Assembly: GCA_040954595.2 (NCBI GenBank)
Contig: CM082598.2
Coordinates: 6,649,097-6,713,096 of the forward strand
DNA: 64,000 nucleotides
Direction of reading: 5' to 3'
DNA from: Balanoglossus misakiensis
Taxonomy: Eukaryota > Animalia > Hemichordata
Of this stretch, positions 2,941-30,665 are shown one piece after another. The notes below the pieces were generated by a model. That model did no database searches. It saw only the letters and a list, made by a program, of their open reading frames with translations, and had not been told where the DNA came from. Made by a program: the position numbers and the translations under genes. Positions within the stretch are counted from its first letter, which is position 1; the number at the start of each line of letters is the position of its first letter.

Positions 2941-2980
2941 GCGCGGGTTTTTTAATCTTCCTTCAAGGATGTGGGTGAAA

Positions 2981-2992
2981 TACTCGTCGCCA
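2981..2992 (-). promoter_or_regulatory. Primer-binding site (TGGCGACGAG), complementary to the 3' end of tRNA-Ser(GCU)
   Basis: TGGCGACGAGTA lies 1 nt after the LTR end; the first 10 nt match the typical metazoan tRNA-Ser(GCU) 3' end ...CTCGTCGCCA (recalled, not searched). Confidence 0.75.
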
Positions 2993-2993
2993 G

Positions 2994-3231
2994 TGTTATG
3001 TACCGCTTCTCACGGTATATGTGTTTATACGTGTCAGTCGCTCTGACTTCGTAAATTAGAGGACACTCCGAATTGAATCATGAACACGAACATGTATTTA
3101 TTGCTTGCACACAAGGTGGACTACAAGTACAAGAGAGAGTATCAGAACGAGGCTATATGTCCCATACTGCCATGCGTCTGGAATGTACCAAAGTCAATAC
3201 AGGGGGATCAGAATACATCTGATACACTACA
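2994..3231 (-). repeat. 5' LTR (238 bp) of the Gypsy element
   Basis: Minus strand reads TGTAGTG...CATAACA (TG..CA termini) and contains AATAAA (~3097-3102). Beyond 3231 the sequence matches the intron unit seen uninterrupted at ~18985-19050. Confidence 0.85.
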
Positions 3232-3402
3232 AATACCATTAACTGTTGGTTAATATTATCCACAAGGGAGTTTGTGATGACAATTTGTTTGTTTGTTTGT
3301 TTGTTTGTTTGTTCATTCATTCGTTCATTTTAAGAAATTAACCTCATGTGACATTACAGTTTTATTGACATCCTCATCATGCTCCTCCTTCATTACTTAC
3401 AG

Positions 3403-3501
3403 AATGGAGATACCCCTTTGCACAATGCAGCAAGGTTTGGTGATGAAGGCCATGTCAGATTGTTATTGGAACACGAAGCTGATGTGACCATACAAAACAA
3501 G
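3403..3501 (+). CDS. Ankyrin cassette exon A1 (NGDTPLHNAARFGDEGHVRLLLEHEADVTIQNK)
   Basis: 99 nt, phase 0/0, cattacttacAG|...AAG|GTaaat. Confidence 0.9.
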
Positions 3502-6500
3502 GTAAATACCAACCTGATTTCTGCAGGTTAATTCTATCAGTATGGAAAGATTTATTCATTTATTTTTTCGTTTGTTTGTATGTGTGTGCTTGTTTTTTTG
3601 TTTAAAGAAAATTACACATTGCGTTTAATTTTTGTGACATTATTCTCATGCTCCTCCTTCATTACTTACAGAATGGAGACACCCCTTTGCATTATGCAGC
3701 AGGGGATGGTGATGAAGGCCGTGTCAGATTGTTATTGGATCACGAAGCTGATGTGACCGTACAAAACAAGGTAAATACCAACTTGACTTCTGCAGGTTAT
3801 TTCTGTCAGTATGGAAAGATTTATTCATTTATTTTTTCGTTTGTTTGTATGTGTGTGCTTGTTTTTTTGTTTAAAGAAAATTACACATTACGTTTAATTT
3901 TTGTGACATTGTTCTCATGCTCCTCCTTCATTACTTACAGAATGGAGACACCCCTTTGCATTATGCAGCAGGGGATGGTGATGAAGGCCGTGTCAGATTG
4001 TTATTGGATCACGAAGCTGATGTGACCGTACAAAACAAGGTAAATACCAACTTGACTTCTGCAGGTTATTTCTATCAGTATGGAAAGATTTATTCATTTA
4101 TTTGTTTGTTTGTTTAGGAATCCTCACAGTATGTTTCAAATGTTATGACATTGTTCTCATGCTCCTCCGCCATTAAGGCTGCCCCACACGAGAGAAATCA
4201 GCTGAGCAAAAAGTCATTCGAGGAATTTTGCTCAGCAATTTTCCTTCCGTGTGCGGGCAATTTTTCCTGATCTTTTTACTTTTGCGCCGCGGATCACAAT
4301 ATTCAACATGTTGTATATTGTTTTTCCTCACGAGGAAAATTACTCACTGTGTGCGCCGAACAAAGTAATTTTACTCACGTATCTAGCCTAATTGCGCATG
4401 CGCCGGCATCACTTGACGACGATACCAACCTGACTTCTGCAGATTAATGCTATTAGTATAGAAACATTTATTTATTTATTTGTTTGTTTGTTTGTTTAGG
4501 AATCCTCACAGTATGTTTCAAATGTTATGACATTGTTCTCATGCTCCTCCTCCATTACATACAGAAATACTCACCAGTACGGTGTGGGCAAGAAATTAAG
4601 TTACTCACAATGAAAATGCTTCATAATAATGGATGACCACAGACAAGTTCTCTACCTCTGATAATGATAACAGTAATTTAGGCACTCTATGCAAGTCAAA
4701 ACACAGTATTTCACTCAAACAAACACTTTCTGAACATTAATGATCACCAAAGTCATCTCTAGTCATTAGTCTAAACAAAGATTTCCCATCCATGTAAATT
4801 TTCTGGTCTCATGCAGATCTATACAAATTGATCCAAATCAGTTTTTCCCTCAAAACTGTCAAGATGAATAAAGGCACAATCTACTGTCTGTATTTTCTTT
4901 GTAACAGACCTGATGAGAGACAGACATTGTAAAAATTATAAATTTCATGAAAAGAGATCATTGTTTAAAAGATTAAAATCAAATTTTCATCAAGCCTCTG
5001 GACTAAAATCATGAGGATATCTATCAAATACATTGGTCTGGCTATTTTACCTTCTATGGTTTGCAGCTTTTGAAATTGTTCATCGTTATGAGGAAATTTA
5101 TCTGTTATCTCTAAACAAAGTCAAATTGAACATTCTGACATGGTGGACCTATTACACACAATGCATTCATTTAATTCAACTCTATCATTTAAAGCTACAT
5201 TGACGTGGAGACATCCAACTCAAAAACATGTGTCACGGCCACCATGATCCCATTTAGGGATTACACAGAAAGAGTCTACACCGGAGTACATATACAGACA
5301 CACACACACATAGAGAGATCAATAGGCAAACACTGCCTGACCCATAAGCTGCCAATGGCATGTGAAATGTACATAGACCAAGTAGAACAGCTGGTCTCTT
5401 TAACAGTTAGCCAGTTATGTAAACATGCAGGAATTTGATGTATACAAATCTCAGAGGGGTGCATTTTTGTATTACAAAGAACTATGTACTGGTAATTGTT
5501 CTTATTGAGATAAAAATTGTGGTATGAGACAAAATATCCTACAAAATATAAAAGTTCCAAATTACCTATGATTTGATTCCATAGTATTTCTAAAGAAACC
5601 AATCTCATTAACTTACACTCGAATTTTACAGTAATCAGCCATACAGAATACACTTTCAGAGAAATATAATTTTTTATCAAAATTGGAAAATATGCTCCCA
5701 AAATACAAGATATTGCCCCCACAAAACATTGACACTTTAATCACCATGACAACTCACCCAGGAACCTTCAAATCAAAATTCAAAGCAATGGGGGTAGAGG
5801 GTTCTGAGAAAAAGTTTAACCAAAAGTACACTAAATGTATTGAATTCTTCACGTTGATTTGAAAATACATACATGCAAATCTTACTTGGGGTACCCCTAG
5901 GAACATGTCTTCCAAATTTCAAAGCAATCTGACAAGCAGTTATAGAGAAACCTATTTGATCAAAAAAGGCAAAAATGATAAATATGCAAATTTTGCAACA
6001 ATTTAAACAAAATTATGGTAACTCAGATCACATATATGAAGCTTCATACTGAATTTCAAAGAAGTCAGCGGATCAATTCTGGAATAGTAAATTTTTTTAC
6101 CAAAAATGTGACAAAATGCATAAAGAGTAGAAAATTCACACTACTAGTATTAGCTCAAAACGTACAGAACCGTGTGAACACAACTTCCATCCTGCTTGTA
6201 TGATATGAGAGTAAAAATATCGCCAAAATAATAAATGGTGAACACCGATTATTCATTTTGGCGAGTTTTTCACTCTCCCGCGAGAGACTTTGTTCCTTTA
6301 ATATTCATGAGTTTACTTTTCTTGTTTATATACACTCTTATAAAGATTGGCTATTACATCAAGTTGACAACCCCCGCACAAGTACATCATGTACATAAAC
6401 AAAAATAGTCTAGTGTGTGGAGCCGCCTCCCCTTTTTACAGGAAGTACTTTCGAAATATTTTTATGCAATCAGTCCACACTCATGATCAGTTTTGTGTCA

Positions 6501-9500
6501 GAATTATACCGTAGTCATAGCAACATTTCGAGTAAGACTTTACCAGAAGAACTTGTTTTTGTTGCGGCTCTGATTGGGGCCATTTAAAACTGGGGTTTGT
6601 TTGGCGACTTTTAGGACCGAAGGAGGGAAGCGCAGCCATGGTCTCATCACACATGCCATGCGGGGGGACTTGCTAGGGGGGAGGGTGCTTGTTGACAGTG
6701 CCGAGAGGAGTCGGCCAGTTTGAGCTTGTACTTCAGGCCGAATAGCGCAGTGCCGACCCTATTTACCTCTTATCAACTTGATAAAATATAATACATTGTA
6801 ACATTAAATTGATCAGTCTGACAATTTTTTTCATCAGTCTGAGCAACACAGTGGCGGCGTTTGGATTCCTCTTTCTCTTGGAAGTCGCTCAAGCTTATAA
6901 AACATGAGGTCTGTGCAGCTCCGCTCCTCAGCTTCTCATCACTGTCCGTCACTTACCCAATCATTTCAAAGGGGCGATCAAGATGGCCAGAACAGCCAAT
7001 TTTAACCAACCATGCAGGTTCAAGAACCTGAGAAAATATGCTAAAAGCATGCATAGATATATTGAAGAGATAAACATTGGGAACAATAGGATTAAGGGAG
7101 GTGTGACTGGTCCAATCTGTTCAGTTTTAGTGTGGGGCACGGCTGGAATGGTTACACAAATGTTCTTGAAAGTTAGTGCTACTGTGGCTTTCAATGGAAT
7201 CTCTTATGAAGAGTTTTGTTACTTTTGTTTGTTCTTGATATGTCATGAAAAGAATGACTGCATTCAGTGTTTCATTGCATTTAATTTCATTTGCCACACA
7301 TTCCCATTGGCCACAGTGTCCACTCAAGTCTTGCGTTGGTTATTAGACTTTTTGATGCAGTGCGATGGAGAAAGGGAATCAGTGTTAACTTTCTTCAGAT
7401 GATTTTTTGTGTGAAATTCATTTTTTTTATTTAAACGCTATTTCTACAAATAACTAGTGACACCATTGCACAACTCTACTTGATATTGTTGGACCACTCA
7501 GTAGAAATTTATTTTGTGGATGATTGATTTATCCCTTGTCACATAAAATTTCTCTGTTATTTCCCCTTTGATCAACATTGTCCAGTCTGCACAGCTTGGC
7601 TACTTTGTGCTGAGAACAGTCTGATGCCCTCCTACAGGAAATAAACAGTTTGGATAGCACAGATGTTTGATCTGTTTCTACGTAAATCTTCACACCTCTC
7701 AAATTTGTCATCATATTGGAGATGAGATGTGATTATTCCAAATTGGCCATTGTGTCTTCTGACAATTCTACTATACGTCACTGTAGTTGTTGTTTAAATC
7801 TTCTTCTATATTGTGTAGGTTGTAAAAATAAATTGGTCCCATTCAGGAAATGTTCACTAACATTACATCACTGTCAGTTGTGTTGTGTTCATTCTTCGAT
7901 AGAAAATCATAAATAAAGTTCAGTTTAAAATTGGTGTATTGGTTATCCGTAATGTTATTTGTTTTGCAAATTGTCAAATTTGAGTTTGTTTGTGAATTAT
8001 TGGGAGTAACTTTTCTTAATGTATCAACTGGCAGATATTTCGTCGGAATTTATTTAGCTTGTTAATATTATCCACAAGGGAGTTTGCGATGACAATTTGT
8101 TGTTTGTGTGTTTGTTCGGTCGTTCATTTTAACAAATTAACCTCATGTTACATGTTACAGTTTTCTTGCCATCCTTATCATGCTCCTCCTTTATTACTTA
8201 CAGGATGGAGACACCCCTTTGCATTATGCAGCAAGGGATGGTGATGAAGGCCGTGTCAGATTGTTATTGGAACACAAAGCTGATGTGACCATACAAAACA
8301 AGGTAAATACCAACCTGACTTGTGCAGGTTAATTCTATCAATGCAGATTAATTCTGAAAGTATGAGCTTTCTCAATAGTCCCAAATTCCACTGTAGTTTT
8401 CGTGGTAAATTGTGTCTGGCATTCAATGTATCTATTTGTCCATTGTCCTTTGAATCAAAACTACTCCCTCTGTCGAGTCAGGTGTTGTACAGACACAGGC
8501 AAGTATTGATTCATGATGATGATGTGATTGTCTCTCCTATCTCTGAGACATTTGATCTCCACTGTCAGCAATTTGGGGTTATGAGAAAGTGGGATTGGCT
8601 CCGGCATCTACCAACACCTGTCTTGTCGAACATAAGAATGCTGTTGTTTTTTACATTGTTTATCATAATTTTTTTGTGTTTTAAATAATAACCTCATTTT
8701 TGGACACTGATTTCTGTCTGTCCGTCTGTAGACAGATTTTGTTCCACTCATAACTTGAGAGAAATTGAATCCAATGATATGAAATTTGATATGTAGCATT
8801 GTTATGATAAGATCTAGATCTGATTAGATTTTGGTGGGTGTGGCTCATTAAGTAAATGCTCATTTGCATATTTAATGATGTCTTGTGATTAGGCCATATC
8901 TCCATAAATACTCAATCAAATTTAGTGGAACTTTTTTCATAATTTTTACATTGCTCATTACCAACAATATGATGAAAGTTTAGTGGGTTTCACTTAATTA
9001 ATTCTCATTTCCAAAATTAATGAATTAATGAAATTAGGCTATAGCTCAAAACTGTCTCAAGCAAATTTGGCGCTGTGCTAGAGGGACTTCATAATAATAA
9101 AAAAATATTTAATTCATGAATATTTCTGTGAACAACATCGTGAACACTGATATTTGTGTGATCGGTGCCAAGTATAACTAATACATTTTGTTACATAGTC
9201 CCATCTAGCGGTGAGAATTATCTCAACTTTGGATCTGATACTCTCTCAGTCAGTCATGACAGTTTTTCCCCACATAGATTTAGACGTGGTGGGTATGGCC
9301 GATTTGCCTCAAATCACCAAGTCTATTAAACGGACAAATATATCTCTCTCGCTGTCCTTTTTCCATTAATTATGTTTCATACAAGACACCGTTAATATTA
9401 TTCTACATGTGTATATGTAGTGAAGGAATGTTCAACCACACACAACTTCCATCCTGCTTGTATGATATGAGAGTAAAAGTCTCGCCAAAATAATAAATGG

Positions 9501-12500
9501 TTATTCATTTTGGCGAGTTTTTCACTCTAGCGAGAGAGAGACGTTGTCCCTTTAATATTCATGAGTTTACTTTTCTTGTTTACGTACACTCTTATAACGA
9601 TTGGCTATTACACCAAGTTGACCACCTCCTGCACAAGTACATCATGTATATAAACAAAACAAGTCTGGTGTGTGGAGCCACCTCCCCTTTTTACAGGAAG
9701 TACTTTCGAAAAAAAAATTATGCAATCAGTCCACACTCATGACCAGTTTTGTGTCAGAATTATAGTCATAGCAACATTTCGAGAAAGACTTTACCAGAAG
9801 AACTTGTTTTTGTTGTGGCTCTGATTGGGGCCATTTAAAACTGGGGTTTGTTTGGCGACTTTTAGGACCGAAGGACAGAAGCACAGCCATGGACACATCA
9901 CACATGCCATGCGGAGAACTTGCTGGGGGCTGGGGTACTTGTTGACAGTGCCGAGAGGAGTCGGCCAGTTTGAGCTTGTACTTCAGGCCGAATAGCGCAG
10001 TGCCGATGCTATTTACCTCTTATAAACTTTATAAAATATAATACATTGTAACACTAAATTGTTCAGTCGGACGATTTTTTTCATCATTCTGAGCAACACG
10101 GCGGCAGCGTTTGGATTGCTCTTTCTCTTGGAAATCGCTCAAGCTTATAAAACATGAGGTCTGTGCGGCTCCACTCCTCAGCTTCTCATCACTGTCCGTC
10201 ACTTACCCAATCATTTCAAAGGGGTGATCAAGATGGCCAGAACAGCCAATTTTAACCAACCAGGTTCAAGAACCTGAGAAAAGGTGCTCAAAGCATGCGA
10301 AAGATATATTGACGAGATAAACATTGGGAACAATAGGATTAAGGGAGGTGTGACTGGTTCAATCTTTTCAGTTTTAGTGTGGGGCATGGCTGGAATGGTG
10401 ACACAAATATCCTTGAAAGTTAGTGCTACTGTGGCTTTCAATGGAATCTCTTATGAAGAGTTTTGTTGCTTTTGTTTGTCCGTGATATTTCATTAAAATT
10501 TTTCTTCCCATGGAATGACTGCATTTCAGTATTTCAGTGTCTTACCACATTCCCATTGGCCACAGTGTCCATTCATGTTTTGCTTTGGTTATTAGACTTT
10601 TTGATGCAGTGTGAGTGTTAACTTTCTTCAGATGGATTTATGGGGTGAAATTCAAGTTTTTAGCTCTGCAGTCAGAGACGCGGAGCTTATCAGATAGGTG
10701 AACTCTGAGTTGTCATCCGGCGTATGTCGTCCGCCGTCCGTCAACATTTTTCTTCTTTTGTCTTCTCAGAAACCTCTGTTCCAATTGATTGGAAATGTTC
10801 TATGCAGCTTCCTTTGGGTGACTTAAGTCAATTTTTCTCAAATTGTGGTGAAATTTGCATATTGTATTTCTGGGGCAATTTTCCCGTATTTGGTCAAAAA
10901 TCATTTTTTTGTCTTCTTCTCTGAAATAGCTGCTCCAATTAATTGGACATTTGATATGCAGCTTCCTTGGGGTGACCTTAGTTTGTTCAAATTGTGGTTA
11001 AATTTGCATATTTGTACTTTTGGGACTATTGAAAAAGGCTCAACCATGTGTGTATGTCTATCCACCACACCTTCTTATTTTCTACCATCTATATATGTTT
11101 GCTTGTTGAATATTCAGCTTCTCATCATAACCTGCATGCTAACTGGTTACCTAATCATTTCTGCAACCCATTACAGTGGAGCTCTATCGGACGCTAGGTC
11201 GCTTGTTTTATTTAATCATTTTTTATACAGATAAATACCGGTAATGACATCGTTGCAAAACTCTACTTGATATTGTTGGACAACAAGTGGAAATATATTT
11301 TAATGATGATAGATTTATCGCTTGTCACATAAAATTTCTCTTTAATTTCCCCTTTGATCGATATTGTCCAGTGTGCACAGCTTGGCTACTTTGTGCTGAG
11401 AACAGTCTGTTGCCCTCCTACAGGAAATAAGCATAGTTTGGTTAGCACAGATGTTTTATCTGTTTGTTCATAAATCTTCACATCTCTCAAATTTCTCTTT
11501 AATTTACCCTTTGATCAATATCGTCCAGTCTGCACAGCTTGGCTACTTTGTGCTGAGAACAGTCTGATGCCCTCCTACAGGAAATAAGCATAGTTTGGTT
11601 AGCACAGATGTTTGATCTGTTTGTTCATAAATCTTCACATCTCTCAAATTTCTCTTTAATTTCCCCTTTGATCGATATTGTCCAGTCTGCACAGCTTGGC
11701 TACTTTGTGCTGAGAACAGTCTGTTGCCCTCCTACAGGAAATAAGCATAGTTTGGTTAGCACAGATGTTTGATCTGTTTGTTCATAAATCTTCACATCTC
11801 TCAAATTTCTCTTTAATTTCCCCTTTGATCGATATCGTCCAGTCTGCACAGCTTGGCTACTTTGTGCTGAGAACAGTCTGTTGCCCTCCTACAGGAAATA
11901 AGCATAGTTTGGTTAGCACAGATGTTTGATCTGTTTGTTCATAAATCTTCACATCTCTCAAATTTCTCTTTAATTTCCCCTTTGATCGATATTGTCCAGT
12001 CTGCACAGCTTGGCTACTTTGTGCTGAGAACAGTCTGTTGCCCTCCTACAGGAAATAAACATAGTTTGGTTAGCACAGATGTTTGATCTGTTTGTTCATA
12101 AATCTTCACATCTCTCAAATTTCTCTTTAATTTCCCCTTTGATCGATATCGTCCAGTCTGCACAGCTTGGCTACTTTGTGCTGAGAACAGTCTGATGCCC
12201 TCCTACAGGAAATAAGCATAGTTTGGTTAGCACAGATGTTTGATCTGTTTGTTCATAAATCTTCACATCTCTCAAATTTCTCTTTAATTTCCCCTTTGAT
12301 CGATATCGTCCAGTCTGCACAGCTTGGCTACTTTGTGCTGAGAACAGTCTGATGCCCTCCTACAGGAAATAAGCATAGTTTGGTTAGCACAGATGTTTGA
12401 TCTGTTTGTTCATAAATCTTCACATCTCTCAAATTTCTCTTTAATTTCCCCTTTGATCGATATCGTCCATTCTGCAAAGCTTGGCTACTTTGTGCTGAGA

Positions 12501-15500
12501 ACAGTCTGTTGCCCTCCTACAGGAAATAAGCATAGTTTGGTTAGCACAGATGTTTGATCAGTTTCCACATAAATCTTCACATCTCTCAAATTTCTCTTTT
12601 ATTTCCCCTTTGATCGATATCGTCCATTCTGCAAAGCTTGGCTACTTTGTGCTGAGAACAGTCTGTTGCCCTCCTACAGGAAATAAGCAAAGTTTGGTTA
12701 GCACAGATGTTTGATCTGTTTGTTCATAAATCTTCACATCTCTCAAGTTTCTCTTTAATTTCCCCTTTGATCGATATCGTCCAGTCTGCACAGCTTGGCT
12801 ACTTTGTGCTGAGAACAGTCTGATGCCCTCCTACAGGAAATAAACATAGTTTGGTTAGCACAGATGTTTGATCTGTTTGTTCATAAATCTTCACATCTCT
12901 CAAATTTCTCTTTTATTTCCCCCTTGATCGACATCGTCCAGTCTGCAAAGCTTGGCTTCTTTGTGCTGAGAACAGTCTGTTGCCCTCCTACAGGAAATAA
13001 ACATAGTTTGGTTAGCACAGATGTTTGATCAGTTTCCACATAAATCTTCACATCTCTCAAATTACTCTTTTATTTCCCCTTTGATCGACATCGTCCAGTC
13101 TGTACAGCTTGGCTACTTTGTGCTGAGAACAGTCTGATGCCCTCCTACAGGAAATAAACATAGTTTGGTTAGCACAGATGTTTGATCTGTTTGTTCATAA
13201 ATCTTCACATCTCTCAAATTTCTCTTCAATTTCCCCTTTGATCGATATCGTCCAGTCTGCACAGCTTGGCTACTTTGTGCTGAGAACAGTCTGATGCCCT
13301 CCTACAGGAAATAAACATAGTTTGGTTAGCACAGATGTTTGATCTGTTTGTTCATAAATCTTCACATCTCTCAAATTTCTCTTTAATTTCCCCTTTGATC
13401 GATATCGTCCAGTCTGCACAGCTTGGCTACTTTGTACTGAGAACAGTCTGATGCCCTCCTACAGGAAATAAGCATAGTTTGGTTAGCACAGATGTTTGAT
13501 CTGTTTCTACATAAATCTTCACATCTCTCAAATTTCTCTTCAATTTCCCCTTTGATTGACATATGCATCCAGTCTGCACAGCTTGGCTACTTTGTGCTGA
13601 GAACAGTCTGATGCCCTCCTGCAGGAAATAAACATAGTTTGGTTAGCACAGATGTTTGATCTGTTTCTACATAAATCTTCACATCTCTCAAATTTCTCTT
13701 TTATTTCCCCTTTGATCGACATTGTCCAGTCTGCACAGCTTGGCTACTTTGTGCTGAGAACAGTCTGATGCCCTCCTACAGGAAATAAACATAGTTTGGT
13801 TAGCACAGATGTTTGATCTGTTTCTACATAAATCTTCACATTTCTTAAATTTGTCGTCATATTGGAGATGACATGTGATTATTCCAAATTGGCCAATGTT
13901 TCTTCTGACAATTCTACTAAATGTCACTGTAGTTGTTGGCTAGATCTTCTTCTATATTGTGTAGGTTGCATAAATAAATTGGCCACATTCAGTAAATGTT
14001 CACTAACATTACATCACTGTCAGTTGTGATGTAATCATTCTTTGAAAGAAAATCATAAAAAGTTAAGTTTAAAATTGGTTATGCGTAATGTTATTTGTTT
14101 TGCAAATTGTCAAATTTCAGGTTGTTTGTCAATTACTGGGAGTAACTTTTCTTTCTGTATCAACTGGCAGATATTTTCACAGAATTTATTTAGCTCGATC
14201 GTTTAAGTACATGTATAAAACTGAATTATACATCTTGTGTTTAGAGTGGATACAGTTTCTGTTTGAATGCCATAAGCGAGTTTGCGATGACAATTTGTTG
14301 TTTGTTTGTTTGTTCATTCATTCATTCGTTCATTTTAAGAAATTAACCTCATTTGACATTTCAGTTTTTTTTGGACATTCTCATCATGCTCCTCCTTCAT
14401 TACTTACAGGTTGGAGACACCCCTTTGCATCATGCAGCAAGGGTTGGTGATGAAGGCCGTGTCAGATTGTTATTGGAACACGAAGCTGATGTGACCATAC
14501 AAAACAAGGTAAATACCAACATCACTTCTGCAGGTTAATTCTATTCAGGTTAAAACTGTATTGACCAATCAGCACGCTCGATATTAATGTCCAATCACAG
14601 CCATGCATTAAATGGCCTTTACCTGACCCCTTTCGTGAGTGTAGCGCCAGCAGCGGGAGAAAGGGGGCAGGGTACCAGACTAAATACCAACCTAATTTCT
14701 GCAGCTTAATTCTATCAGTATGGAAAGATTTATTCATTTATTTTTTTGTTTGTTTGTATGTGTGTGCTTGTTTTTTTGTTTAAGGAAAATTACACATTAC
14801 GTTTAATTTTTGCGACATTATTCTCATGCTCCTCCTTCATTACTTACAGAATGGAGACACCCCTTTGCATGGTGCAGCAAGGGATGGTTATGAAGGCCGT
14901 GTCAGATTGTTATTGGAACACGAAGCTGATGTGACCATACAAAACAAGGTAAATACCAACATCACTTCTGCAGGTTAATTCTATCAGTATGGAAAGATTT
15001 ATTCATTTATTTGTTTGTTTGTTTGTTTAGGAATCCTCACAGTATGTTTCAAATGTTATGACATTGTTCTCATGCTCCTCCTCCATTAAGGCTGCCGCAC
15101 ACGAGAGAAATCAGCTGAGCAAAAAGTCATTCGAGGAATTTTGCTCAGCAATTTTCCTTCTGTGTGCGAGCGATTTTTCCTGACCTTTTTACTTTTGCGC
15201 CGCGGATCACGATATTCAACATGTTTGAAATTTTTTTCCTCACGAGAAAAATTACTCACTGTGTGCGCCGAACAAAGTAATTTTACTCACGTATCTAGCC
15301 TAATTGCGCATGCGCCGGCATCACTTGACGACGATACGAACCTGACTTCTGCAGATTAATGCTATTAGTATAGAAACATTTATTTATTTGTTTGTTTGTT
15401 TGTTTGTTTTTGAATCCTCACAGTATGTTTCAAATGTTATGACATTGTTCTCATGCTCCTCCTCCATTACATACAGAAATACTCACCAGTACGGTGTTGG

Positions 15501-18500
15501 CAAGAAATTAAGTTACTCACAATGAAAATGCTTCATAATAATGGATGACCACAGACAAGTTCTCTACCTCTGATAATGATAACAGTAATTTCACTCACTT
15601 TCTGAACATTAATGATCATCAAAGTCATCTCTAGTCATTAGTCTAAACAAAGATTTCCCATCCATGTAAATTTTCTGGTCTCATGCAGATCTATAGAATT
15701 TGATCCAAATCAGTTTTTCCTCAAAACTGTCAAGATAAGTAAAGGCACAATCTACTGTCTGTATTTTTCTTTGTAACAGACCTGATGAGAGACAGACATT
15801 GTAAAAATTATAAATTTCATGAAAAGAGATCATTGTTTAAAGATTAAAATCAAATATTCATCCAACCTCTGGACTAAAATCATGAGGGTATCTATCAAAT
15901 ACATTGGTCTGGCTATTTTGCCTTCTATGGTTTGCAGCTTTTGAAATTGTTCATCATTATCTGTTATCTCTAAACAAAGTCAAATTGAACATTCTGACAT
16001 GGTGGACCTAATACACACAATGCATTCATTTAATTCAACTCTATCATTTAAAGCTACATTGACGTGGAGACATCCAACTCAAAAAAATATGTCACGGCCA
16101 CCATGGTCCCATTTAGGGATTACACAGAAAGAGTCTACACCGGAGTACATATACAGACACACACACACATAGAGAGATCAATAGGCAAACACTGACTGAG
16201 CCATAAGCTGCCATTTGCATGTGAAATGTACATAGACCAAATAGAACAGCTGGTCTCTTTAACAGTTAGCCAGTTATGTAAACATGGAGGAATTTGCTGT
16301 GTATACAAATCTCAGAGGGGTGCCTTCCCCATTACAAAGAACTATGTACTGGTAATTGTTCTTCTTGAGATAAAATTTTTTTGTGGTATGAGACAAAATA
16401 TCCTACAAAATATAAAAGTTCCAAGTTGCCTATGATTTGATTTCATAATATTTCTAAAGAAGCCAGTCCCATTAACTTACAACTCTAATTTTAAAGTAAT
16501 CAGCCATACAGAATACACTTTCTGAGAAATTTAATTTTTTATCAAAGTTGGAAAATATGCTCCCAAAATACAAAACATTGCCCCCCACAAAACATTGACA
16601 CTCTAATCATAGGTTTTGTCAATCATCATGAGAACTCACCCAGGAACTTTCAAATCAAAATTCAAAGCAATGGGGGTAGAGGGTTCTGAGAATTAGTTTG
16701 ACCAAAAATACACTAAATGTATTGAATTCTTCACGTTGATTTGAAAATACATACATGCAAATCTTACTTGGGGTACCCCTAGGAACATGTCTTCCAAATT
16801 TCAAAGCAATCTGACAAGCAGTTATAGAGAAAACATATTTGATCAAAAAGGCAAAAATGATAAATATGCAAATTTTGCAACAATTTAAACAAAATTATGG
16901 TAACTCAGATCACATATATGAAGCTTCATACTAAATTTCAAAGAAGTCAGCGGATCAATTCTAGAATAGTAAATTTTTTTACCAAAAATGTGACATAATG
17001 CATAAAGAGTAGAAAATTCACACTACTAGTATTAGCTCAAAACGTACAGAACCGTGTGAACACAACTTCCATCCTGCTTGTATGATATGAGAGTAAAAAT
17101 CTCGCCAAAATAATAAATGGTAAACACCGATTATTCATTTTGGCGAGTTTTTCACTCTCCCGAGAGAGACTTTGTTCCTTTAATATTCATGAGTTTACTT
17201 TTCTTGTTTATATACACTCTTATAAAGATTGGCTATTACATCAAGTTGACAACCCCCGCACAAGTACCTCATGTACATAAACAAAAATAGTCTGGTGTGT
17301 GGAGCCGCCTCCCCTTTTTACAGGAAGTACTTTCGAAATATTTTGATGCAATCAGTCCACACTCATGATCAGTTTTGTGTCAGAGTTATAGTCATAGCAA
17401 CATTTCGAGTAAGACTTTACCAGAAGAACTTGTTTTTGTTGTGGCTCTGATTGGGGCCATTTTAAACTGGGGTTTGTTTGGCAACTTTTAGGACCGAAGG
17501 ACGGAAGCGCAGCCGTGGTCACATCACACATGCCATGTGGGGGACTTGCTAGGGGTGGGGGTGCTTGTTGACGGTGCCGAGAAGAGTCGGCCAGTTTGAG
17601 CTTGTACTTCAGGCCGAATAGCGAAGTGCCGACCCTATTTACCTCTTATAAACTTTATAAAGTATAATACATTGTAACATTAAATTGTTCAGTCAGACGA
17701 TTTTTTTCATCATTCTGAGCAACACGGCGGCAGCATTTGGATTGCTCTTTCTCTTGGAAATAGCTCAAGCTTATGACACATGAGGTCTGTGCGACTCCGC
17801 TCCTCAGCTTCTCATCACTGTCCGTCACTTACCCAATCATTTCAAAGGGGTGATCAAGATGGCCAGAACAGCCAATTTTAACCAACCAGGTTCAATAACC
17901 TGAGAAAAGGTGCTAAAAGCATGCAATAGATATATTGACGAGATAAACATTCAGAACAATAGGATTAAGGGAGGTGTGACTGGTCCAACCTGTTCAGTTT
18001 TAGTGTGGGGCACGGCTGGAATGGTTACACAAATGTTCTTGAAAGTTTGTGCTATTGTGGCTTTCAATGGGATCTCTTATGAAGAGTTTTGTTACTTTTG
18101 TTTGTTCTTGATATGTCATGAAAAGAATGACTGCATTCAGTGTTTCATTGCATTTCATTACATTTGCCACACATTCCCATTGGCCACAGTGTCCACTCAA
18201 GTCTTGCTTTGGTTATTAGACTTTTTGATGCAGTGTGATGGAGAAAGGGAATCAGTGTTAACTTTCTTCAGATGATTTTTTGTGTGAAATTCATTTTTTG
18301 TATTTAAACACTATTTCTACATATAACTAGTGACACCATTGCACAACTTGATATTGTTGGACCACTCAGTAGAAATTTATTTTAATGATGATTGATTTAT
18401 CCCTTGTCACATAACATTTCTCTTTTATTTCCCCTTTGATCGACATCGTCCAGTCTGCACAGCTTGGCTACTTTGTGCTGAGAACAGTCTGATGCCCTCC

Positions 18501-20756
18501 TACAGGAAATAAATATAGTTTGGTTAGCACAGATGTTTGATCTGTTTCTACATACATCTTCACATATCTCAAATTTGTCATCATATTGGAGATGAGATGT
18601 GATTATTCAAAAATCTTCTGACAATTCTACTAAATGTCATTGTAGTTGTTTGCTAAATCTTCTTCTATATTGTGCAGGTTGCAAAAATAAATTGGTCCCA
18701 TTCAGGAAATGTTCACTAACATTACATCACTGTCAGTTGTGATGTGTTCATTCTTTGATAGAAAATCATAAATAAAGTCCAGTTTAAAATTGGTGTATTG
18801 GTTATCCGTAATGTTATTTGTTTTGCAAATTGTCAAATTTGAGTTTGTTGGTGAATTATTCGTAGTAACTTTTCTTTTTGTATCTACTGGCAGATATTTT
18901 GTCAGAATTATTTTACCTCGTTAAAATGCATGTATAAAACTGAATTACACATCTTGTGTTTAGAGCCGATACAGTTTCTGTTCAAATGCCATTTACTGTT
19001 GGTTAATATTATCAACAAAGGGAGTTTGTGATGACAATTTGTTGGTTGTTTGTTCATTCAGTTGTTCATCTTAAGAAATTAACTTGTGTGACATTTCAGT
19101 TTTCTTGACATTCTCATCATGCTCCTCTTTAATTACTTACAGCATGGAAACACCCCTTTGCATTATGCAGCAGAATGTTTTCGTGGTGAAGGCCGTGTCA
19201 GATTGTTATTGGAACACAAAGCTGATGTGACCATACAAAACAAGGTAAATACCAACCTGACTTCTACAGATTACTTCTATTGGTATAGAAACATTTATTT
19301 GTTTGTTTATTTGTTTATTTAGGAAACCTAACAGCACGTTTCAAATTGTATGACATTAATTGTTCTCCTGCTCCTCCTTCATTACTTACAGGATGGAGAC
19401 ACCCCTTTGCATTATGCAGCAAGGGATAGTGGTGAAGGCTGTGTCAGATTGTTATTGGAACACGAAGCTGATGTGACCATACAAAACAAGGTAAATACCA
19501 ACATCACTTCTGCAGGTTAATTCTATCAGTATGGAAAGATTTATTCATTTATTTGTTTGTTTGTTTGTTTAGGAAAACCTCAGAGTATGTTTCAAATGTT
19601 ATGACATTGTTCTCATGCTCCTCCGCCATTAAGGCTGCCGCACACGAGAGAAATCAGCTGAGCATAAAGTCATTCGAGGAATTTTGCTCAGCAATTTTCC
19701 TTCCGTGTGCGGGCGATTTTTCCTGATCTTTTTACTTTTGCGCTGCGGATCACGATATTCAACATGTTTGAAATTTTTTTCCTCACGAGAAAAATTACTC
19801 ACTGTGTGCACCGAACAAAGTAATTTTACTCACGTATCTAGCCTAATTGCGCATGCGCCAGCATGACTTGACGACGATACCAACCTGACTTCTGCAGATT
19901 AATGCTATTAGTATAGAAACATTTATTTATTTATTTGTTTGTTTGTTTGTTTGTTTGTTTGTTTGTTTAGGAATCCTCACAGTATGTTTCAAATGTTATG
20001 ACATTTTTCTCTTGCTCCTACTCCATGACATACAGAAATACTCACCAGTACGGTGTTGGCAAGAAATTAAGTTACTCACAATGAAAATGCTTCATAATAA
20101 TGGATGACCACAGACAAGTTCTATACCTTTGATAATGATAACAGTAATTCAGGCACTCTATGCAAGTCAAAACACAGTATTTCACTCAAACAAACACTTT
20201 CTGAACATTAATGATCATCAAAGTCATCTCTAGTCATTAGTCTAAACAAAGATTTCCCATCCATGTAAATTTTCTGGTCTCATGCAGATCAATAGAATTT
20301 GATCCAAATCAGTTTTCCCCTCAAAACTGTCAATATATATAACGGCACAATCTACTGTCTGTATTTTTCTTTGTAACAGACCTGATGAGAGACAGATATT
20401 GTAAAAATTATAAATTTCATGAAAAGAGATCATTGTTTAAAATATTAAAATCAAATATTCATCCAACCTCTGGACTAAAATCATGAGGGTATCTATCAAA
20501 TACATTGGTCTGGCTACTTTGCCTTCTATGGTTTGCAGCTTTTGAAATTGTTCATCGTTATGAGGAAATGTATCTGTTATCTCTAAACAAAGTCAAATTG
20601 AACATTCTGACATGGTGGACCTAATACACACAAAGCATTCATTTAATTCAACTCTATCATTTAAAGCTTCATTGACGTGGAGACATCCAACTCAAAAAAA
20701 TATGTCACGGCCACCATGGTACCATTTAGGGATTACACAGAAAGAGTCTACACCGG

Positions 20757-20820
<64 letters not shown>

Positions 20821-23800
20821 TCAAAAGGCAAACACTGACTGAGCCATAAGCTGCCATTTGCATGTGAAATGTACATAGACCAAATAGAACAGCTGGTCTC
20901 TTTAACAGTTAGCCAGTTATGTAAACATGCAGGAATTTGATGTGTATACAAATCTCAGAGGGGTGCCTTCCCCATTACAAAGAACTATGTACTGGTAATT
21001 GTTCTTCTTGAGATAAAATGTTTTGTGGTATGAGACAAAATATCCTACAAAATATAAAAGTTCCAAATTACGTATGATTTGATTCCATAACATTTCTAAA
21101 GAAACCAATCCCATTAACTTACAACTCGAATTTTAAAGTAATTAGCCATACAGTATACACTTTCTGAGAAATGTGATTTTTTATCAAAATTCAAAAATAT
21201 GCTCCCAAAATACAAAATATTGCCCCCCCCCCCCAATAAAAAAAATTATTATACACCGACTGCTGTAACCTATGGAGTTCCGTAATACAATAATTCGCGG
21301 TATCACCGTACAATAATTATTCAAATGAGGACGCGGAGTCCAATAACACCAGGGTTATTGGACGCATTGTGACTTTGACCTCACAGGACTGGTGATCAAT
21401 GTAAACAATGATGATATTAACCCAACTCTGACGAAAATTTATATAAAAAAGTACACAGCCGTTATTAAACAAAATTAGTGGTGACCCAAGATGCGAAATA
21501 AGTCAAAATCCACGCTGAAATTTCAGTCAAAAGAATCTGTGAACGAACAGGCGAGCGCGTTCATTTCAAGTTCCAGAACGAGCTCAGCGCAAGCAGCGTA
21601 GAACGTCGCGCGCGAGACAGGCAGTTCGACACTAGCATCACCTGATGCGCGAGGTGAAGGCGCGTTCGATATGCAAATTACATCATGGCGGCGTCTGAAA
21701 ACTAGAAAGTCCGACAGCGGCCTATTTATTCTTTATCCTTCATCATGGACGTCCGGAAAAGGTGTACAATAATAAGGTTATTCACAAAATACCGGGATTT
21801 ATGTCCTCATACATCGTACGCTTCGGTATTGTCCTCGACGCTGCGCGTCTTGGACAAAACCTGCGATGCACGATGTACTCGGACATAAATCCTGGTATTT
21901 TGTGAATAACCTTATTATATTGACATTTTAATCATAGGTTTTGTGAATCATCATGAGAACTCACCCGGGAACCTTCAAATCAATATTCAAAGCAATGGGA
22001 AAGAGTTTGACCAAAAGTACACTAAATATATTGAATTCTTCACGTTGATTTGCAAATCTTACTTGAGGTACCCCTAGGAACATGCCTACGAAATTTCAAA
22101 GCAATCTGACACGCGGTTTTAGAGAAAAAACTATTTAGTCAAAAAAGGCAAAAATGAAAATATACACATTTTGCAACAATTTAAACAAACCTATGGTGAT
22201 TCAGATCACATATATGAAGCTTCATACTAAATTTCAAAGAAGTCAGCTGATCAATTTTAGAAAGAAGATTTTTTTACCAAAATTGTGAAAAAATGCATAA
22301 AAAATAGAAAATTCTCATTATTAGCTCAAAAACATACAGAACTGTATGAGGTTAACACAAGGTACATGCATACCAATTTCCAAATCAATATGACCAGTGG
22401 TTGTTGAGTTTCTGAGTTTTGACCGATTTCTCGTTTTACCCAGCTAATTTGCATATTTTGGCAATGACAACTTCATTTGAACAAACTCCTATCTACAGCC
22501 CTTAATGCATCTGCACACCAAATATTGAGGTGATATGCGCAGCGGTTTTCAAGTCATTGATGTGGATGAACACACATCCATCCATCCATCCATCCATCCA
22601 TCCATCCATTCATGCAGGTTTGAATTGTTTGAAACTTTCTTTTACTTTTTAATTTGAATCTGTGTCACTTTAATAAATAATTATCTATCTATCATAACCA
22701 AATGGGACAAAATGATATAAGCACCCTAAAAACTATCATGCACACCTTATCTTTTTGTACCTCTTACACCGTGTTGTCTGTTTTTGTTTCTTTGATAGGA
22801 TGGCAACACAGTACTCCACATGGCAGCAATGGGCAGACCGTCTTGGAAGGATTATGGTAAAGTCGTGAAACTATTGTTGCAATATGGTGCTGATATTGAC
22901 TGCAAGAATAAGGTACAATCTTCCACTTTTTTATTCCACGACATTCTATGACACATACTCCAGACCTACACCATGTGTTCTGATCAACTCCCATTTTGTC
23001 AAGTAGTTAATATTCATAATCTTTGAAATTGAAATGCACAATTTTATAAAATTCTTGAAATTGCCTGAACACTATCACTCCAAAATGAGTTTGCACAATG
23101 GTCCACTTTCCATTGTAGTTTTCATGGTAAATTGTGTCTAGGATACAATGTATCTATTTACCATTGTTCTTTTAATCAAAACTATCCCTCTATCAGGGCA
23201 TGGTGTTGTACAGTAAGGTGTTGACCCATGACGGTCAATGCCAATCCTATCGCTGAAACTTTCTATCTCTGTTTTCAGCGATGTGGAGAGCATATTTCTG
23301 TCGGCCTCCAGCATCTGCCAACTCCTGTCTGTCACCTAATAATCTAACAATTCACAATAAGGAGGGTTGTTTTTCATTGGTTATGCTCTATCTTATTTGG
23401 GTTTTAAATAATACTGTACTTTTGGTAAGAGTTTTTGATACAATGTGATGGAAAAGAGGAATCAGTGTTAATTTTCTTTAGGTGATTGTTGATTTTGTGA
23501 AAATCAGGTTTTGTTCACTATTAAACATGTCACTTGATGTGGTTATTTTTTTCATGAAAAATTTAAGACAATTATCTTTAAATTACATTATAATTTAATG
23601 AATTTTGATTTATGGTTATCTGTAACATTATTACTACTTTTATAAATATTAACATCATAATTAATGTTTCAATTCTTTTTATCCCAAATAAATAAGACTG
23701 GAAAGACACCACTTGATGTCGCTGAAAATGAGTCTAGTAAGGAGGTGCTGTCGGATTACATTCAGGTGAGTGAAATATTTATATTACGATGAATTTTAAT

Positions 23801-26800
23801 AATATACAACCTGAAGTGTGCTCATTCTGATTCATCTTGAATTAAAAGTGACCACATTTATATCGATATGATATAAATTATGACTTAATGTGGTGTCACT
23901 CTTAATGTACTCTCCAAACCCACAAATAAAATTGTATTTTGTGATTTATTTATTCCAGAAACGAAACGAGTACAATGTCCTGATGAAGGAATCAGGTATG
24001 GAATGTGACATTTTAAAGTTGTTCTTTGCTGGAGATGGTGGAGTTGGTAAGACTACATTATTGGAGTCACTTCAGAGGGTATGTTAATATTTTTTTTTTG
24101 ATTTGCGTAAAAGGTCTTAGCTAGTAGGCCATATTACAATATATGAGGGTTGTTTGTGTGAAAGTTTGCAAACTGGTTAAAATGATGGGCTAGAGTAAAT
24201 TCTTAATGAAAAACCCTTACTCACTGTCCTAAAATGTGTTTTGTGAAGCAAACGATGCCTTTCATGAAAAAAACTGCATGTGAAGAAAAATTGTCGCAAC
24301 TGATTCAAAACAAACGATTGGCAGAGTAAAAGCGCAATACTTCACATGCAAAATATTTTGTGCGCCAGCGATATTAAGAAAATATTTAGACAAACATTTG
24401 TAATCTCATCGCATATAAAGAAACTGCTGTAGATCGGAATGCCACATGTGAATGTATCAATATGTGACACAGGATAATTAAAACATATGCTTGGTAGATG
24501 AAATTTTGTTGTATTTTGGAAATATGGGCTTGAATTGTGAAAGTTCATAGCATTTTTTCAAGCCTTTAAAGAGGGTGGGATTGAGATTGTATTTCATTTG
24601 TTGTTTGTGTGTTTTGATTATCCATGGCCCCTGAAAAGGGAATATTGTAGTCACACATTTTACAGCTATGATTTTGTATGTCTCAGTCATATTGGAACAA
24701 CTCTGCATGCATCTTTAGTTTAAATTAACTCTATTTAAATGTATTGTTTAAAGGGACAATGTTTCTCTGGCTGCCCTTTTTCGATTAATTATGTTTGATA
24801 CAAGACACTGTTTATGTTATTCTACATGTGGATATATAGTGAATCAACGTTTGACCACACACAATTTCCATACCACTTGTAGAGATGAGGGTGAAACACT
24901 CGCCAAATTGAACAATCAGTCTCTACCGTTTATTCATTCTGGGGAGATTTTTACTCTCATATCCTACAAACGGGATGGATGTTGTGTGTGGTCAAACGTT
25001 GATTCACTATGTAGCCACATAACAAAAATGGTGTCTTGTATCAAACATAATTAATGGAAAAAGGGCTGAGATAGAGAGACTTTGTCCCTTTAATTTAATT
25101 CCTCAGGTTAGCTAGTGCAGCTTAGACAATTTAATGAGGTCTGATGCAGAGTCACAAGCAAATATGGTTATGCACAAAGACCAGAAAACTCAAAATAACT
25201 AGAATTGGTTTTCTTTCACTCCCCCTTATCAAAGATTAAAGAAACAACCCTGGAATCTGAAGAACGTGAACACATTCCCACACCTGGTATTGATGTCAAA
25301 AGTGTTCATATTCCTGACGTAGGAAATGTCAGTGTTTGGGATTTTGCTGGCCAGGCTGAGTATTACGTCACTCATAACATGTTTCTGGGAGCACCCAATG
25401 CTGTCTCCATATTGGTGTTCAAAGCTACAGACGAGAATGGTAAACTCAACACCTTTGAACGTGTGTTCCCACAGGTAAGAATCTTCACAGTAAAGTTAGA
25501 CTGTATATCTGTATGTTTTGCATTGTTTATCACTTATCAAAATTTATCTGCAGGAATGGAAAATATAGCTGTTTGAGTAAATTTATTCCATGTGCAACAC
25601 TATCTCAGTCACCATTCATGGCTTTTTGATAGAGTTGCAGATATTTCTATAATTAGTCTCCTGCAGAACCAACATGCCATTGTTGTTCAATAATTATTTC
25701 ACACCGTGTATCTGATAGCTCCATATATTACCTGAATCATGAGAAATCTCATATTGAGATTCAATTCATGATCTATTTGACTCATTGTCACAGTTGGCGA
25801 CTGATACTGTTTCTTTCTGTAAAAATGAGATTGTACATAAAGGCTGGTGGCCTAAAGTACTGAATAAAGCTTATTATTATAATTCATGATCTATTTGACT
25901 CAAAATTAATATTTATCACAAATATTCTCATTTGTAGATTTTGTTTTGGTTGCGGTTTCTGAAAGGAACAACCCACATGGACAGGTATTCATTTGATAAG
26001 TCAGGTGAAGGCTATGATAAACCAGTGGTGATGTTGGTTGCAAGTCGAGCTGATAGGTTAAAGAGAATCGATATGGCTCTAGGTTAGTGTTGTCAGCTTT
26101 TTCATATACACTGTCTCAAACGATATCTCTCATTTGTTTGTATGTATGTATGTATGTGTGTGTGTTTGTGACAGTGTGTGTGTATGTATGTATGGATGTA
26201 TACATGCATGCATGTATGTACGTACATACATGCGTGTGTGTTTGTATGCATGTATGTTTGTTTGTGTCATCTCACCATGCTGTCAGAAACTGAATACTTA
26301 CCTTGAGTAGAACGTAGTTAGTTGATTCACAAATGAAAGTTTGAAAATATTCGTAAAAACATTTAACCCTTTCACCACCATGATTCAGTCCAAACCAATT
26401 GTTTTCTATGGTAAGGTTGGACCTCTAAAGAGGGAACTGGGGGTGAAAGGGTTAATGACTATTTTATGCCCAATTGACAGAAAGGTTGTGGCTTAGTTTC
26501 TGCATATGGAGTTATCTGGCAATTAATATTATCATCTCTTTATAATTTACAGCTAATCATTTGCTGAAGGACGTTCTGACAGAAGCACAGAAAATGTTTC
26601 AAGATTATTTGGACATAGTGAATGCCATATTTTTGGTGAATTGCCGTGATTCTACAGACAGTGAAATGAAGAAACTCCGTGACTGTTTATATCAGAAAAA
26701 GGTAAAAAAAATTCTCTGTAGTCATTTGCCTCTTAATTGTTAAGTTTTATCAGCTCAAATACACTATAGCACTGCAGTATTGGTGTACAACTACAAGATT

Positions 26801-30082: not shown

Positions 30083-30190
30083 ACAGATAACATCATGGGC
30101 ATAACAAGTATTTATTTTGTTATGTAAATTTGCCACCATTATAATTTCTGGGGCAAACACTGGTGTTTAATCTGTCCTCGTCTCGGTATG

Positions 30191-30665
30191 CCTATGGACA
30201 TATCACATGGACATGACTGCAAAATGGACACAGGTCATTTATGAAGTCAATGTGAACAACTTTACTTGAAGTCAGTACATTGTAAACAGAATACCAGAGT
30301 TTTAATATTTTGTCTGATCATAATATGTCTATAGACACATCACGTACATGGACATGAATGCAAGAATTGACACAGATCATTGATGAAGTCAATGTGAACA
30401 ACTTCACTTGAAGTCAAAACATTGTAAATAGAATACCAGAGTTGTAATTATTTGTCTGATCACAATGTGTCTATAGACACATAACGTACATGGACACAAA
30501 TGCAAGAATGGACACAGATCATTTATGACGTCAATGTGAACAACTTTACTTGAAGTCAGTACATTGTAAAAAGAATACCAGAGTTGTAATAATTTACCTG
30601 ATCACAATGTGTCTATAGACACATCACGTACATGGACATGAATGCAAGAATGGACACAGATCATT
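30191..30665 (+). repeat. 142-bp tandem repeat x~3.3 in the presumed 3' UTR of the ROCO gene
   Basis: ga(a/c)gtcaatgtgaacaac recurs at 30243, 30385, 30527. Confidence 0.9.

What the first reader, a model, noticed from the sequence alone, without database searches (positions are those of the whole stretch)
3403..19490. Cassette variation is almost purely non-synonymous and concentrated on the ankyrin binding face
Seen across A1-A8: codon 1 aat/gat/gtt/cat (N,D,V,H); codon 3 D/N; codon 8 aat/tat/cat/ggt (N,Y,H,G); codons 11-12 RF/GD/RD/RV/ECF; codons 13-14 GD/GY/RG/SG; codon 17 H/R/C. I find only two synonymous differences in the whole set (gat/gac and cac/cat, both in A1). The 3' half changes only conservatively (E/D, I/V) apart from one E/K. 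Established: the beta-turn and helix-1 positions around GxTPLHxAAxxG are the residues randomised or contacting target in DARPins. Inference: diversifying selection on ligand specificity within a homogenised framework.
Basis: partly seen in the sequence, partly recalled or inferred. Interest (0 to 1): 0.85.

Follow-up and report, generated by a model that had tools for sequence, protein, structure and literature searches.

The report
Acorn-worm Roco gene with hypervariable ankyrins
An acorn-worm-like animal gene carries eight near-identical exons, each coding one ankyrin repeat, that differ almost only by amino-acid changes, mostly at the repeat's predicted binding face, and it likely encodes a fast-evolving immune sensor wired to a GTPase switch and a death domain, a design described in fungi and brown algae.

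Summary
A1-A8 are phase-0 exons, one ankyrin repeat each, in an open spliced frame: Ank x10 - Roc - COR - death domain. The nearest named relatives are hemichordate 'DAPK1-like' proteins. There are 21 non-synonymous against 2-3 synonymous changes. That ratio alone is not significant (P=0.09), but my site models favour a class with dN/dS above 1. This survives four trees, intron-flank calibration, CpG removal and double-hit mutations, and no null simulation with recombination (0 of 75) reached the observed statistic. Masking multi-letter codons weakens it (P 0.003-0.27). Codons 1, 3, 8, 11 and 12 are library-randomised ankyrin positions; 1, 8 and 12 recur as selected. Near-identical arrays in relatives from acorn worms, a brittle star and amphioxus vary at the same positions (rho 0.58). 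Likely role: an NLR-like intracellular sensor with a Roco switch. The pattern is known from fungal NLR ankyrins and brown-algal ROCO exons; my searches found no animal report. Ligand, expression, splicing and alleles are untested.

The parts
3403..3501 (+). Ankyrin cassette exon A1 (99 nt, phase 0-0); holds both clear synonymous differences
   Evidence: Pfam Ank E=2e-9
3672..3770 (+). Cassette A2 (exon identical to A3; 269-nt tandem unit)
3941..4039 (+). Cassette A3
8204..8302 (+). Cassette A4
14410..14508 (+). Cassette A5
14850..14948 (+). Cassette A6
19143..19244 (+). Cassette A7 (102 nt, in-frame extra codon at the end of helix 1)
19392..19490 (+). Cassette A8
22799..22912 (+). Divergent ankyrin exon 9 (38 codons, loop insertion), not homogenised
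23697..23765 (+). C-capping ankyrin-like exon
   Evidence: splice sites and frame; identity read by eye
23959..24078 (+). Roc exon with intact P-loop GDGGVGKTT
25235..25474 (+). Roc exon with WDFAGQ
   Evidence: Pfam Roc E=9e-7
25938..26082 (+). Roc exon
26553..26701 (+). Roc exon
28349..28525 (+). COR-A exon
   Evidence: compared by eye with P0157
28709..30082 (+). Last exon: COR plus a C-terminal death domain with a disordered insertion, then stop
   Evidence: Pfam COR-B E=1.6e-8; Foldseek RocCOR E=8e-9; death-domain fold Z=11.2, rmsd 3.5, 100 aligned
4157..4566 (+). Cassette scars: acceptor-side and donor-side flanks with the exon replaced by about 250 nt of other DNA, then an acceptor with no exon (repeated at 15070-15478 and 19613-20037)

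Best explanation
The eight exons are duplicated one-repeat cassettes of an ankyrin-Roc-COR-death-domain gene whose binding-face codons have changed faster than the neutral rate, likely because the ankyrin stack is an NLR-like intracellular sensor under pressure to recognise changing foreign ligands. Shown: exon anatomy, an open spliced frame, the domain order, nested duplications and cassette scars, and a site class with dN/dS about 4-20 centred on codons 1, 8 and 12 (ankyrin positions 3, 10, 14). Inferred: unequal crossing-over and gene conversion add, lose and homogenise whole cassettes, which symmetric phase-0 exons allow without frameshift; selection keeps new residues on the beta-turn and helix-1 face. 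Ligand binding would then drive the Roc-COR GTPase switch and cluster the death domain to recruit death-fold adaptors. Untested: ligand, expression, isoforms, polymorphism.
For: Selection. M2a vs M1a: 2dL 17.0, P=0.0002, w2=6.2 with intron flanks as extra neutral sites; M8 vs M8a similar. Range 10.7-25.2 over four trees, without A7, and without CpG codons or codon 1. With double-hit mutations P=0.0003-0.007. Null simulations: 0 of 75 at or above 17, 2 of 75 above 5.99, observed 18.2. A3/A6/A8 against 1,499 aligned intron columns: 10 N where 4.2 are expected (P=0.013), 0 S where 1.5 are expected. Position. The six library codons carry 12 N against 4 in ten other codons that tolerate change in natural ankyrins, P=0.003. 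Five near-identical repeat sets from four relatives vary at the same positions (Spearman 0.58, P=0.0004); their top 7 positions hold 12 of the window's 21 changes, P=0.004. Family. Relatives swap C-terminal effectors (death domain, CARD, caspase, GT4), and 0 of 19 scanned showed a kinase. Near-identical arrays with different consensus sequences sit in separate branches of the COR tree. Precedent: PMC4986451, PMC3341825, PMC11378527, PMC8195603.
Against: Only 7 distinct 33-codon sequences from one assembly. The exon-wide N:S excess is not significant (P=0.087), and without A7 the face-versus-flank test falls to P=0.09. Masking the four codons that differ by two letters, then A7's indel region and the CpG codons, gives P=0.034, 0.003, 0.14, 0.27 and 0.048; this test is harsh because it deletes whole events. 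Six of 21 changes are at non-library positions, including the conserved turn glycine. 7 of 28 informative site pairs are incompatible, so no single tree is right. The models are my own code with naive Bayes site calls, not PAML or HyPhy. Paralogous repeats generally evolve under relaxed purifying plus some positive selection (PMC5120217). Nothing here ties the gene to immunity except its architecture and analogy, and its 5' end is outside the window.
Confidence: 0.65

Rival explanations
1. There is no positive selection. The framework is under purifying selection, surface positions drift, and CpG decay, multi-nucleotide events and gene conversion inflate the apparent signal in a tiny sample.
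For: Exon-wide N rate equals the intron-flank rate (0.30 vs 0.30). Five of the 20 variable letters are in CpG context. The masked tests lose significance in 2 of 5 runs. The variable codons are also the most tolerant in generic ankyrins.
Against: Nulls with recombination and five-fold CpG never reached the observed statistic (0 of 75). Double-hit models stay significant. Equally tolerant positions off the face barely vary (4 vs 12). All four letters occur at the first position of codon 8, and three letters plus a second-position change at codon 1, among 7 sequences.
Confidence: 0.15
2. Selection is real but is not host-pathogen. It reflects a one-off divergence of new repeat copies toward endogenous partners, or self/non-self (allorecognition or gamete) recognition.
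For: PMC5120217 describes fast divergence of new repeats followed by fixation. Fungal near-identical repeat NLRs are characterised mainly in allorecognition (PMC13449251). Human DAPK1 is a signalling protein.
Against: The same positions diversify in independent arrays across three phyla, and the effector domains are conflict-type and interchangeable.
Confidence: 0.12
3. The variants are patches copied in by gene conversion from diverged cassettes of paralogous genes elsewhere in the genome, so diversity is templated rather than selected in place.
For: Changes cluster in codons 8-17. There are two-letter differences and an in-frame insertion. Sites are incompatible. A close Ptychodera relative has five members at 90% or more identity.
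Against: Imported patches should carry synonymous differences, yet third positions in the variable stretch are unchanged outside A1 and A7's indel.
Confidence: 0.05
4. The array is a decaying pseudogene or an assembly artefact.
For: No start codon in the window; a broken Gypsy element ends 170 nt before A1; A2 and A3 exons are identical.
Against: 16 exons give 1,060 codons with no stop or frameshift and canonical splice sites. 22 of 33 repeat residues are invariant. The P-loop and WDFAGQ are intact. A contig from run X1 spans from inside A7 to the start of A8 with 12 differences in 217 letters.
Confidence: 0.03

Closest known systems
Brown-algal LRR-ROCO genes (Ectocarpus, Saccharina; PMC3341825, PMC11378527)
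   Same: Roc-COR switch; one repeat per same-phase exon; repeat gain and loss; positively selected sites on the concave face; proposed immune receptors
   Different: Here the repeat is ankyrin (99 nt, phase 0) rather than LRR (72 nt, phase 2), there is a C-terminal death domain, and the host is an animal. Alternative splicing is shown in algae and untested here.
Fungal NLRs with high-internal-conservation ANK/WD/TPR repeats (Podospora; PMC4986451, PMC13449251)
   Same: Near-identical repeats with a few hypervariable, positively selected positions on the inner helix and beta-hairpin of ankyrins; linked to cell-death effectors
   Different: The switch there is a STAND ATPase with the sensor C-terminal. 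Here it is a Roc GTPase with the sensor N-terminal and each repeat is its own exon. Repeat-number polymorphism is shown there and untested here.
DAPK1 and database 'DAPK1-like' proteins of hemichordates (P0157/P0003 Ptychodera, P0001 Glandiceps, P0011/P0015/P0018 Saccoglossus)
   Same: Ank-Roc-COR-death-domain order (DAPK1 architecture recalled); the last exon is 50-52% identical to P0003 and groups with it (100/98)
   Different: No kinase in the window or in 19 scanned relatives. DAPK1's ankyrins are divergent and conserved (recalled), whereas these are homogenised and hypervariable.
Prokaryotic AP-GTPase (Roco) counter-invader systems (PMC8195603)
   Same: Fast-evolving N-terminal repeats, Roc-COR and swappable C-terminal effectors, including GT4, which also appears on the amphioxus relative P0026
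   Different: Bacterial and LRR-based, with no introns
DARPin and artificial ankyrin libraries (PMC3308923)
   Same: Constant scaffold varied at positions 3, 5, 10, 13 and 14
   Different: Engineered; position 2 is invariant here, and positions 15, 16 and 19 also vary

Membership tests
Roco proteins | Roc GTPase domain with intact P-loop and DxxG motif | tested here: met
   Pfam Roc E=9e-7; motifs
Roco proteins | COR domain directly after Roc | tested here: met
   Pfam COR-B E=1.6e-8; model pLDDT 85; Foldseek 3dpu E=7.6e-9
DAPK1 orthologue | N-terminal Ser/Thr kinase domain | tested here: inconclusive
   The 5' end is outside the window; 0 of 19 relatives scanned showed a kinase; no identified DAPK1 was in the tree
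DAPK1 orthologue | C-terminal death domain | tested here: met
   Pfam Death only E=0.015 and Foldseek E above 1, but the top 13 VIA-align rows are all death-domain entries, best Z 11.2, rmsd 3.5, 100 aligned
High-internal-conservation repeat domain (PMC4986451) | At least 85% internal similarity over at least 100 aa | tested here: met
   Majority-based similarity 0.90 over 8x33 aa, my approximation of T-REKS; mean pairwise identity is 0.83
High-internal-conservation repeat domain (PMC4986451) | Positively selected sites on the concave face | tested here: met
   Codons 1, 8, 12, mapped by alignment and PMC3308923; no 3D model of the array was made
High-internal-conservation repeat domain (PMC4986451) | Repeat-number polymorphism between individuals | not testable with these tools
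   No whole genome or phased alleles held; the short contigs do not span the array
NLR (STAND) | NACHT or NB-ARC ATPase | tested here: not met
   The switch is a Roc GTPase; it may work like an NLR but is not one
Brown-algal-type exon-shuffling ROCO | One repeat per symmetric exon, with gain and loss | tested here: met
Brown-algal-type exon-shuffling ROCO | LRR repeats | tested here: not met
   The repeats are ankyrin
Brown-algal-type exon-shuffling ROCO | Alternative splicing of repeat exons | not testable with these tools
   No usable transcript data; two RefSeq isoform pairs of relatives differ outside the ankyrins
Dscam-type mutually exclusive cluster | Docking/selector pairing or steric exclusion | tested here: inconclusive
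   No complement of one conserved acceptor-side 14-mer in 1-31000; introns are 147 nt or longer; the upstream exon is outside the window
Diversity-generating retroelement | Adenine-specific variation against a template repeat | tested here: not met
   8 invariant adenines in codons 1-17; no ninth, template-like copy in the window

The most novel reading that the evidence does not exclude
Invertebrate deuterostomes have an overlooked family of Roco-GTPase immune receptors whose sensor is a natural DARPin library. One-repeat exon cassettes are copied, lost and recombined, diversified on the binding face by selection, and possibly combined by alternative splicing into many specificities per gene, signalling through death-fold, caspase or GT4 effectors.
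Probability: 0.3. Interest if true: 0.85.

Novelty: new variant of a known kind. Interest (0 to 1): 0.62.

Why it matters
It would place the strategy of homogenised repeats with a hypervariable face, described for fungal NLRs and brown-algal ROCOs, in animals close to chordates, on a protein related to DAPK1 and the LRRK kinases. It recasts many 'DAPK1-like' annotations in acorn worms, brittle stars and amphioxus as candidate innate sensors. It also gives a direct test of whether Roco proteins are ligand-gated immune switches: swap cassettes and read out GTPase or death-domain activity.

Tried and rejected
No whole genome is held, so paralogues and the 5' end could not be searched. Sequencing runs: no RNA holder listed. 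One RNA run laid on 14000-30300 gave 19 partial reads under 90% alike; this says nothing about expression. Summed contig depths were not used as copy number. Allele-level variation of the cassettes was not obtained. A metagenome scan with the last exon found 65 pattern matches and no true relative. Three look-ups in earlier scan findings returned nothing. DGR-type mutagenesis was rejected. GC-biased conversion was not indicated: 7 weak-to-strong, 9 strong-to-weak, 6 other. No Dscam-type docking site was found. Foldseek alone gave no match at E<=0.001 for the C-terminal domain. Literature: eight topic searches listed no paper on hypervariable ankyrin exons in animal Roco genes. I judged most hits from listings only, subscription journals are largely missing, and no supplements were read; the source data of PMC8195603 and PMC13449251 may list such proteins.
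Full report
What is there. The window is animal DNA. A1-A8 are eight exons of 99 nt (A7 102 nt) with shared acceptor and donor sequences, each coding one ankyrin repeat in phase 0. Eight further exons at 22799-30082 continue the frame: a divergent ankyrin, a cap, Roc, COR and a C-terminal domain, 1,060 codons without a stop. Roc and COR-B pass Pfam thresholds. The model of the last exon matches RocCOR structures (E=7.6e-9). A model of its C-terminal 173 residues matches death domains: the top 13 rows, best Z 11.2. The start of the gene is not in the window; a broken Gypsy element ends 170 nt before A1. The named relatives are hemichordate proteins from Ptychodera, Glandiceps and Saccoglossus at 35-50% identity. 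In a COR tree of 35 rows (the window plus 34 of 158 proteins, kept for a COR match of 200 aa or more and three or more ankyrins, or as the two closest relatives) the gene is sister to Ptychodera P0003/P0157 (100/98) inside a 9-row hemichordate clade (99/95). The species is not identified.

How the array arose. Self-comparison shows nested duplications: a 269-nt tandem unit (A1-A3) and multi-kilobase units (3772-8068 against 14681-18927 at 93%; 3629-5720 against 19100-21227 at 90%). Cassette flanks with the exon missing occur three times, so cassettes are lost as well as gained. Seven of 28 informative site pairs are incompatible, as expected from conversion or repeated change.

The observation. 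The tree-free count is 21 N and 3 S, two of them unambiguous. Alone this is not significant (P=0.087), and the exon-wide N rate equals the flank rate. The signal is at site level. Using my own MG94xHKY code, M2a beat M1a with 2dL 19.7 (exon only), 17.0 (55 nt of flank as extra neutral sites) and 17.4 (CpG codons removed); M8 against M8a gave the same. Ten runs over four trees, without A7, without codon 1 and with equal base frequencies gave 10.7-25.2, w2 4-21. Codon 8 was called in all ten, codon 1 in all nine that held it, codon 12 in nine. Of 75 null data sets with no dN/dS above 1, up to six recombining segments and five-fold CpG mutation, none reached 17 and two passed 5.99; the observed value under the same procedure was 18.2. 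Multi-nucleotide mutations are a known source of false positives (10.1101/165969, search listing only). Masking the four two-letter codons and then more gave P=0.034, 0.003, 0.14, 0.27 and 0.048. Modelling double hits instead kept P at 0.0003-0.007 in 4 of 4 runs. Against 1,499 columns of paralogous intron, A3/A6/A8 show 10 N where 4.2 are expected (P=0.013) and 0 S where 1.5 are expected. I put real positive selection at about 0.8.

Binding face. By alignment to DARPin structures (consensus numbering recalled), exon codon c is ankyrin position c+2. An ankyrin library randomises positions 2, 3, 5, 10, 13 and 14 as one exposed surface (PMC3308923, passages). These are codons 33, 1, 3, 8, 11 and 12, and they hold 12 of 21 changes. 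Ten other codons of similarly high entropy in 93 of 175 non-redundant homologous repeats hold 4 (P=0.003). With the recalled set that also includes codon 31, the rate is 6.4 times the synonymous rate (P=0.001) and 2.5 times the flank rate (P=0.014; 0.09 without A7). Codons 13, 14 and 17 (6 changes) are the helix-turn-helix positions 15, 16 and 19 and are not on that list, and codon 17 is CpG decay.

Larger sample, protein level only. Among 152 proteins, nine had three or more repeat pairs at 70% identity or above. Six of these were named: Glandiceps, Ptychodera, Amphiura, two Branchiostoma species and Saccoglossus. Five clusters from four proteins had four or more distinct gap-free repeats. 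Their variability profile matches the window's (rho 0.58, P=0.0004), and positions chosen from them alone capture 12 of 21 window changes (P=0.004). These arrays have different consensus sequences, and those in the tree lie in separate branches, which suggests repeated origin; I ran no formal test. Relatives end in a death domain, CARD, CARD plus caspase, or GT4, and none of 19 scanned showed a kinase. I do not know their exon structure or dN/dS.

Mechanism. Likely an intracellular sensor: ankyrin stack, Roc-COR switch, death-domain output, with whole-exon duplication and conversion supplying copies and selection diversifying the groove. Anatomy and site-level selection are shown; sensing, signalling and any alternative splicing are inferred.

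Comparison. The same regime is described for Podospora ANK NLRs (PMC4986451, passages), for near-identical-repeat NLRs across life including animals (PMC13449251, passages and section 12), for brown-algal LRR-ROCO genes with one repeat per exon (PMC3341825, abstract and first part of the Discussion; PMC11378527, abstract, passages, section 11) and for bacterial AP-GTPase systems (PMC8195603, passages and section 15). Fast divergence of new repeats is general (PMC5120217, passages). Roco domains on TIR proteins were noted in Aplysia (PMC9334734, passages). Concave-face binding is from PMC8229355 (passages). Eight searches listed no report of this in an animal ankyrin-Roco gene. It is a Roco protein and a high-internal-conservation repeat gene, not an NLR, and not shown to be DAPK1.

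Verdict. Observation confirmed; interpretation supported with a narrower site set; new variant of a known kind; interest 0.62.

Noticed in passing
window 1-3232, - strand: Broken Gypsy-type LTR retrotransposon (gag with a stop, zinc knuckle, protease, RT fragment). An LTR-like end and a primer-binding-site-like motif near 2984-3232 were read by eye. It sits in intron sequence homologous to that before A7, so more cassettes may lie beyond it.
   Followed up: partly
window 2083-2844 and 50417-51204: A 762-nt element with terminal inverted repeats inserted in the Gypsy gag; a second, inverted copy is 85% identical.
   Followed up: partly
window 4157-4566, 15070-15478, 19613-20037, 14684: Cassette scars: flanks without an exon, an intact-looking acceptor with no exon after it, and one orphan donor-side flank.
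   Followed up: partly
cassette codons 1, 8, 12, 13, 14, 17: Six of the eight variable 5'-half codons are NNT and change only at the first two letters, which can never give a stop (6 of 10 T-ending codons against 2 of 23 others, Fisher P=0.004, post hoc). Unexplained.
   Followed up: partly
cassette codon 17: Ankyrin position 19 is Arg/His/Cys here but mostly hydrophobic in the relatives' arrays.
   Followed up: no
exons against flanks: Synonymous variation (0.08-0.12 per site) is lower than in the adjacent intron (0.30; P=0.04-0.09), suggesting exon-centred conversion or splice-enhancer constraint.
   Followed up: partly
window 11332-13852: A 157-nt satellite in 16 copies inside the A4-A5 intron; single copies lie in the paralogous introns near 7546 and 18416.
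   Followed up: no
window 24079-25234: About 11 residues present in Ptychodera P0157 after the P-loop exon have no exon that I could find here (by eye).
   Followed up: partly
window 34409-35182 and 41481-43971: Non-LTR retrotransposon fragments with reverse transcriptase and endonuclease.
   Followed up: no
window 30205-30672 and 31749-32509: 142-nt (3.3 copies) and 25-nt (30 copies) tandem repeats just downstream of the stop codon.
   Followed up: no
P0026, P0030, P0024, P0048: Relatives carry GT4-conflict, CARD plus caspase, or CARD plus death domain after COR; P0001 alternates two repeat types over part of its array.
   Followed up: partly
runs X1 and X2: Up to 9-14 different contigs cover single coding positions of the last two exons, a weak hint of several gene copies; this is not a copy number.
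   Followed up: no
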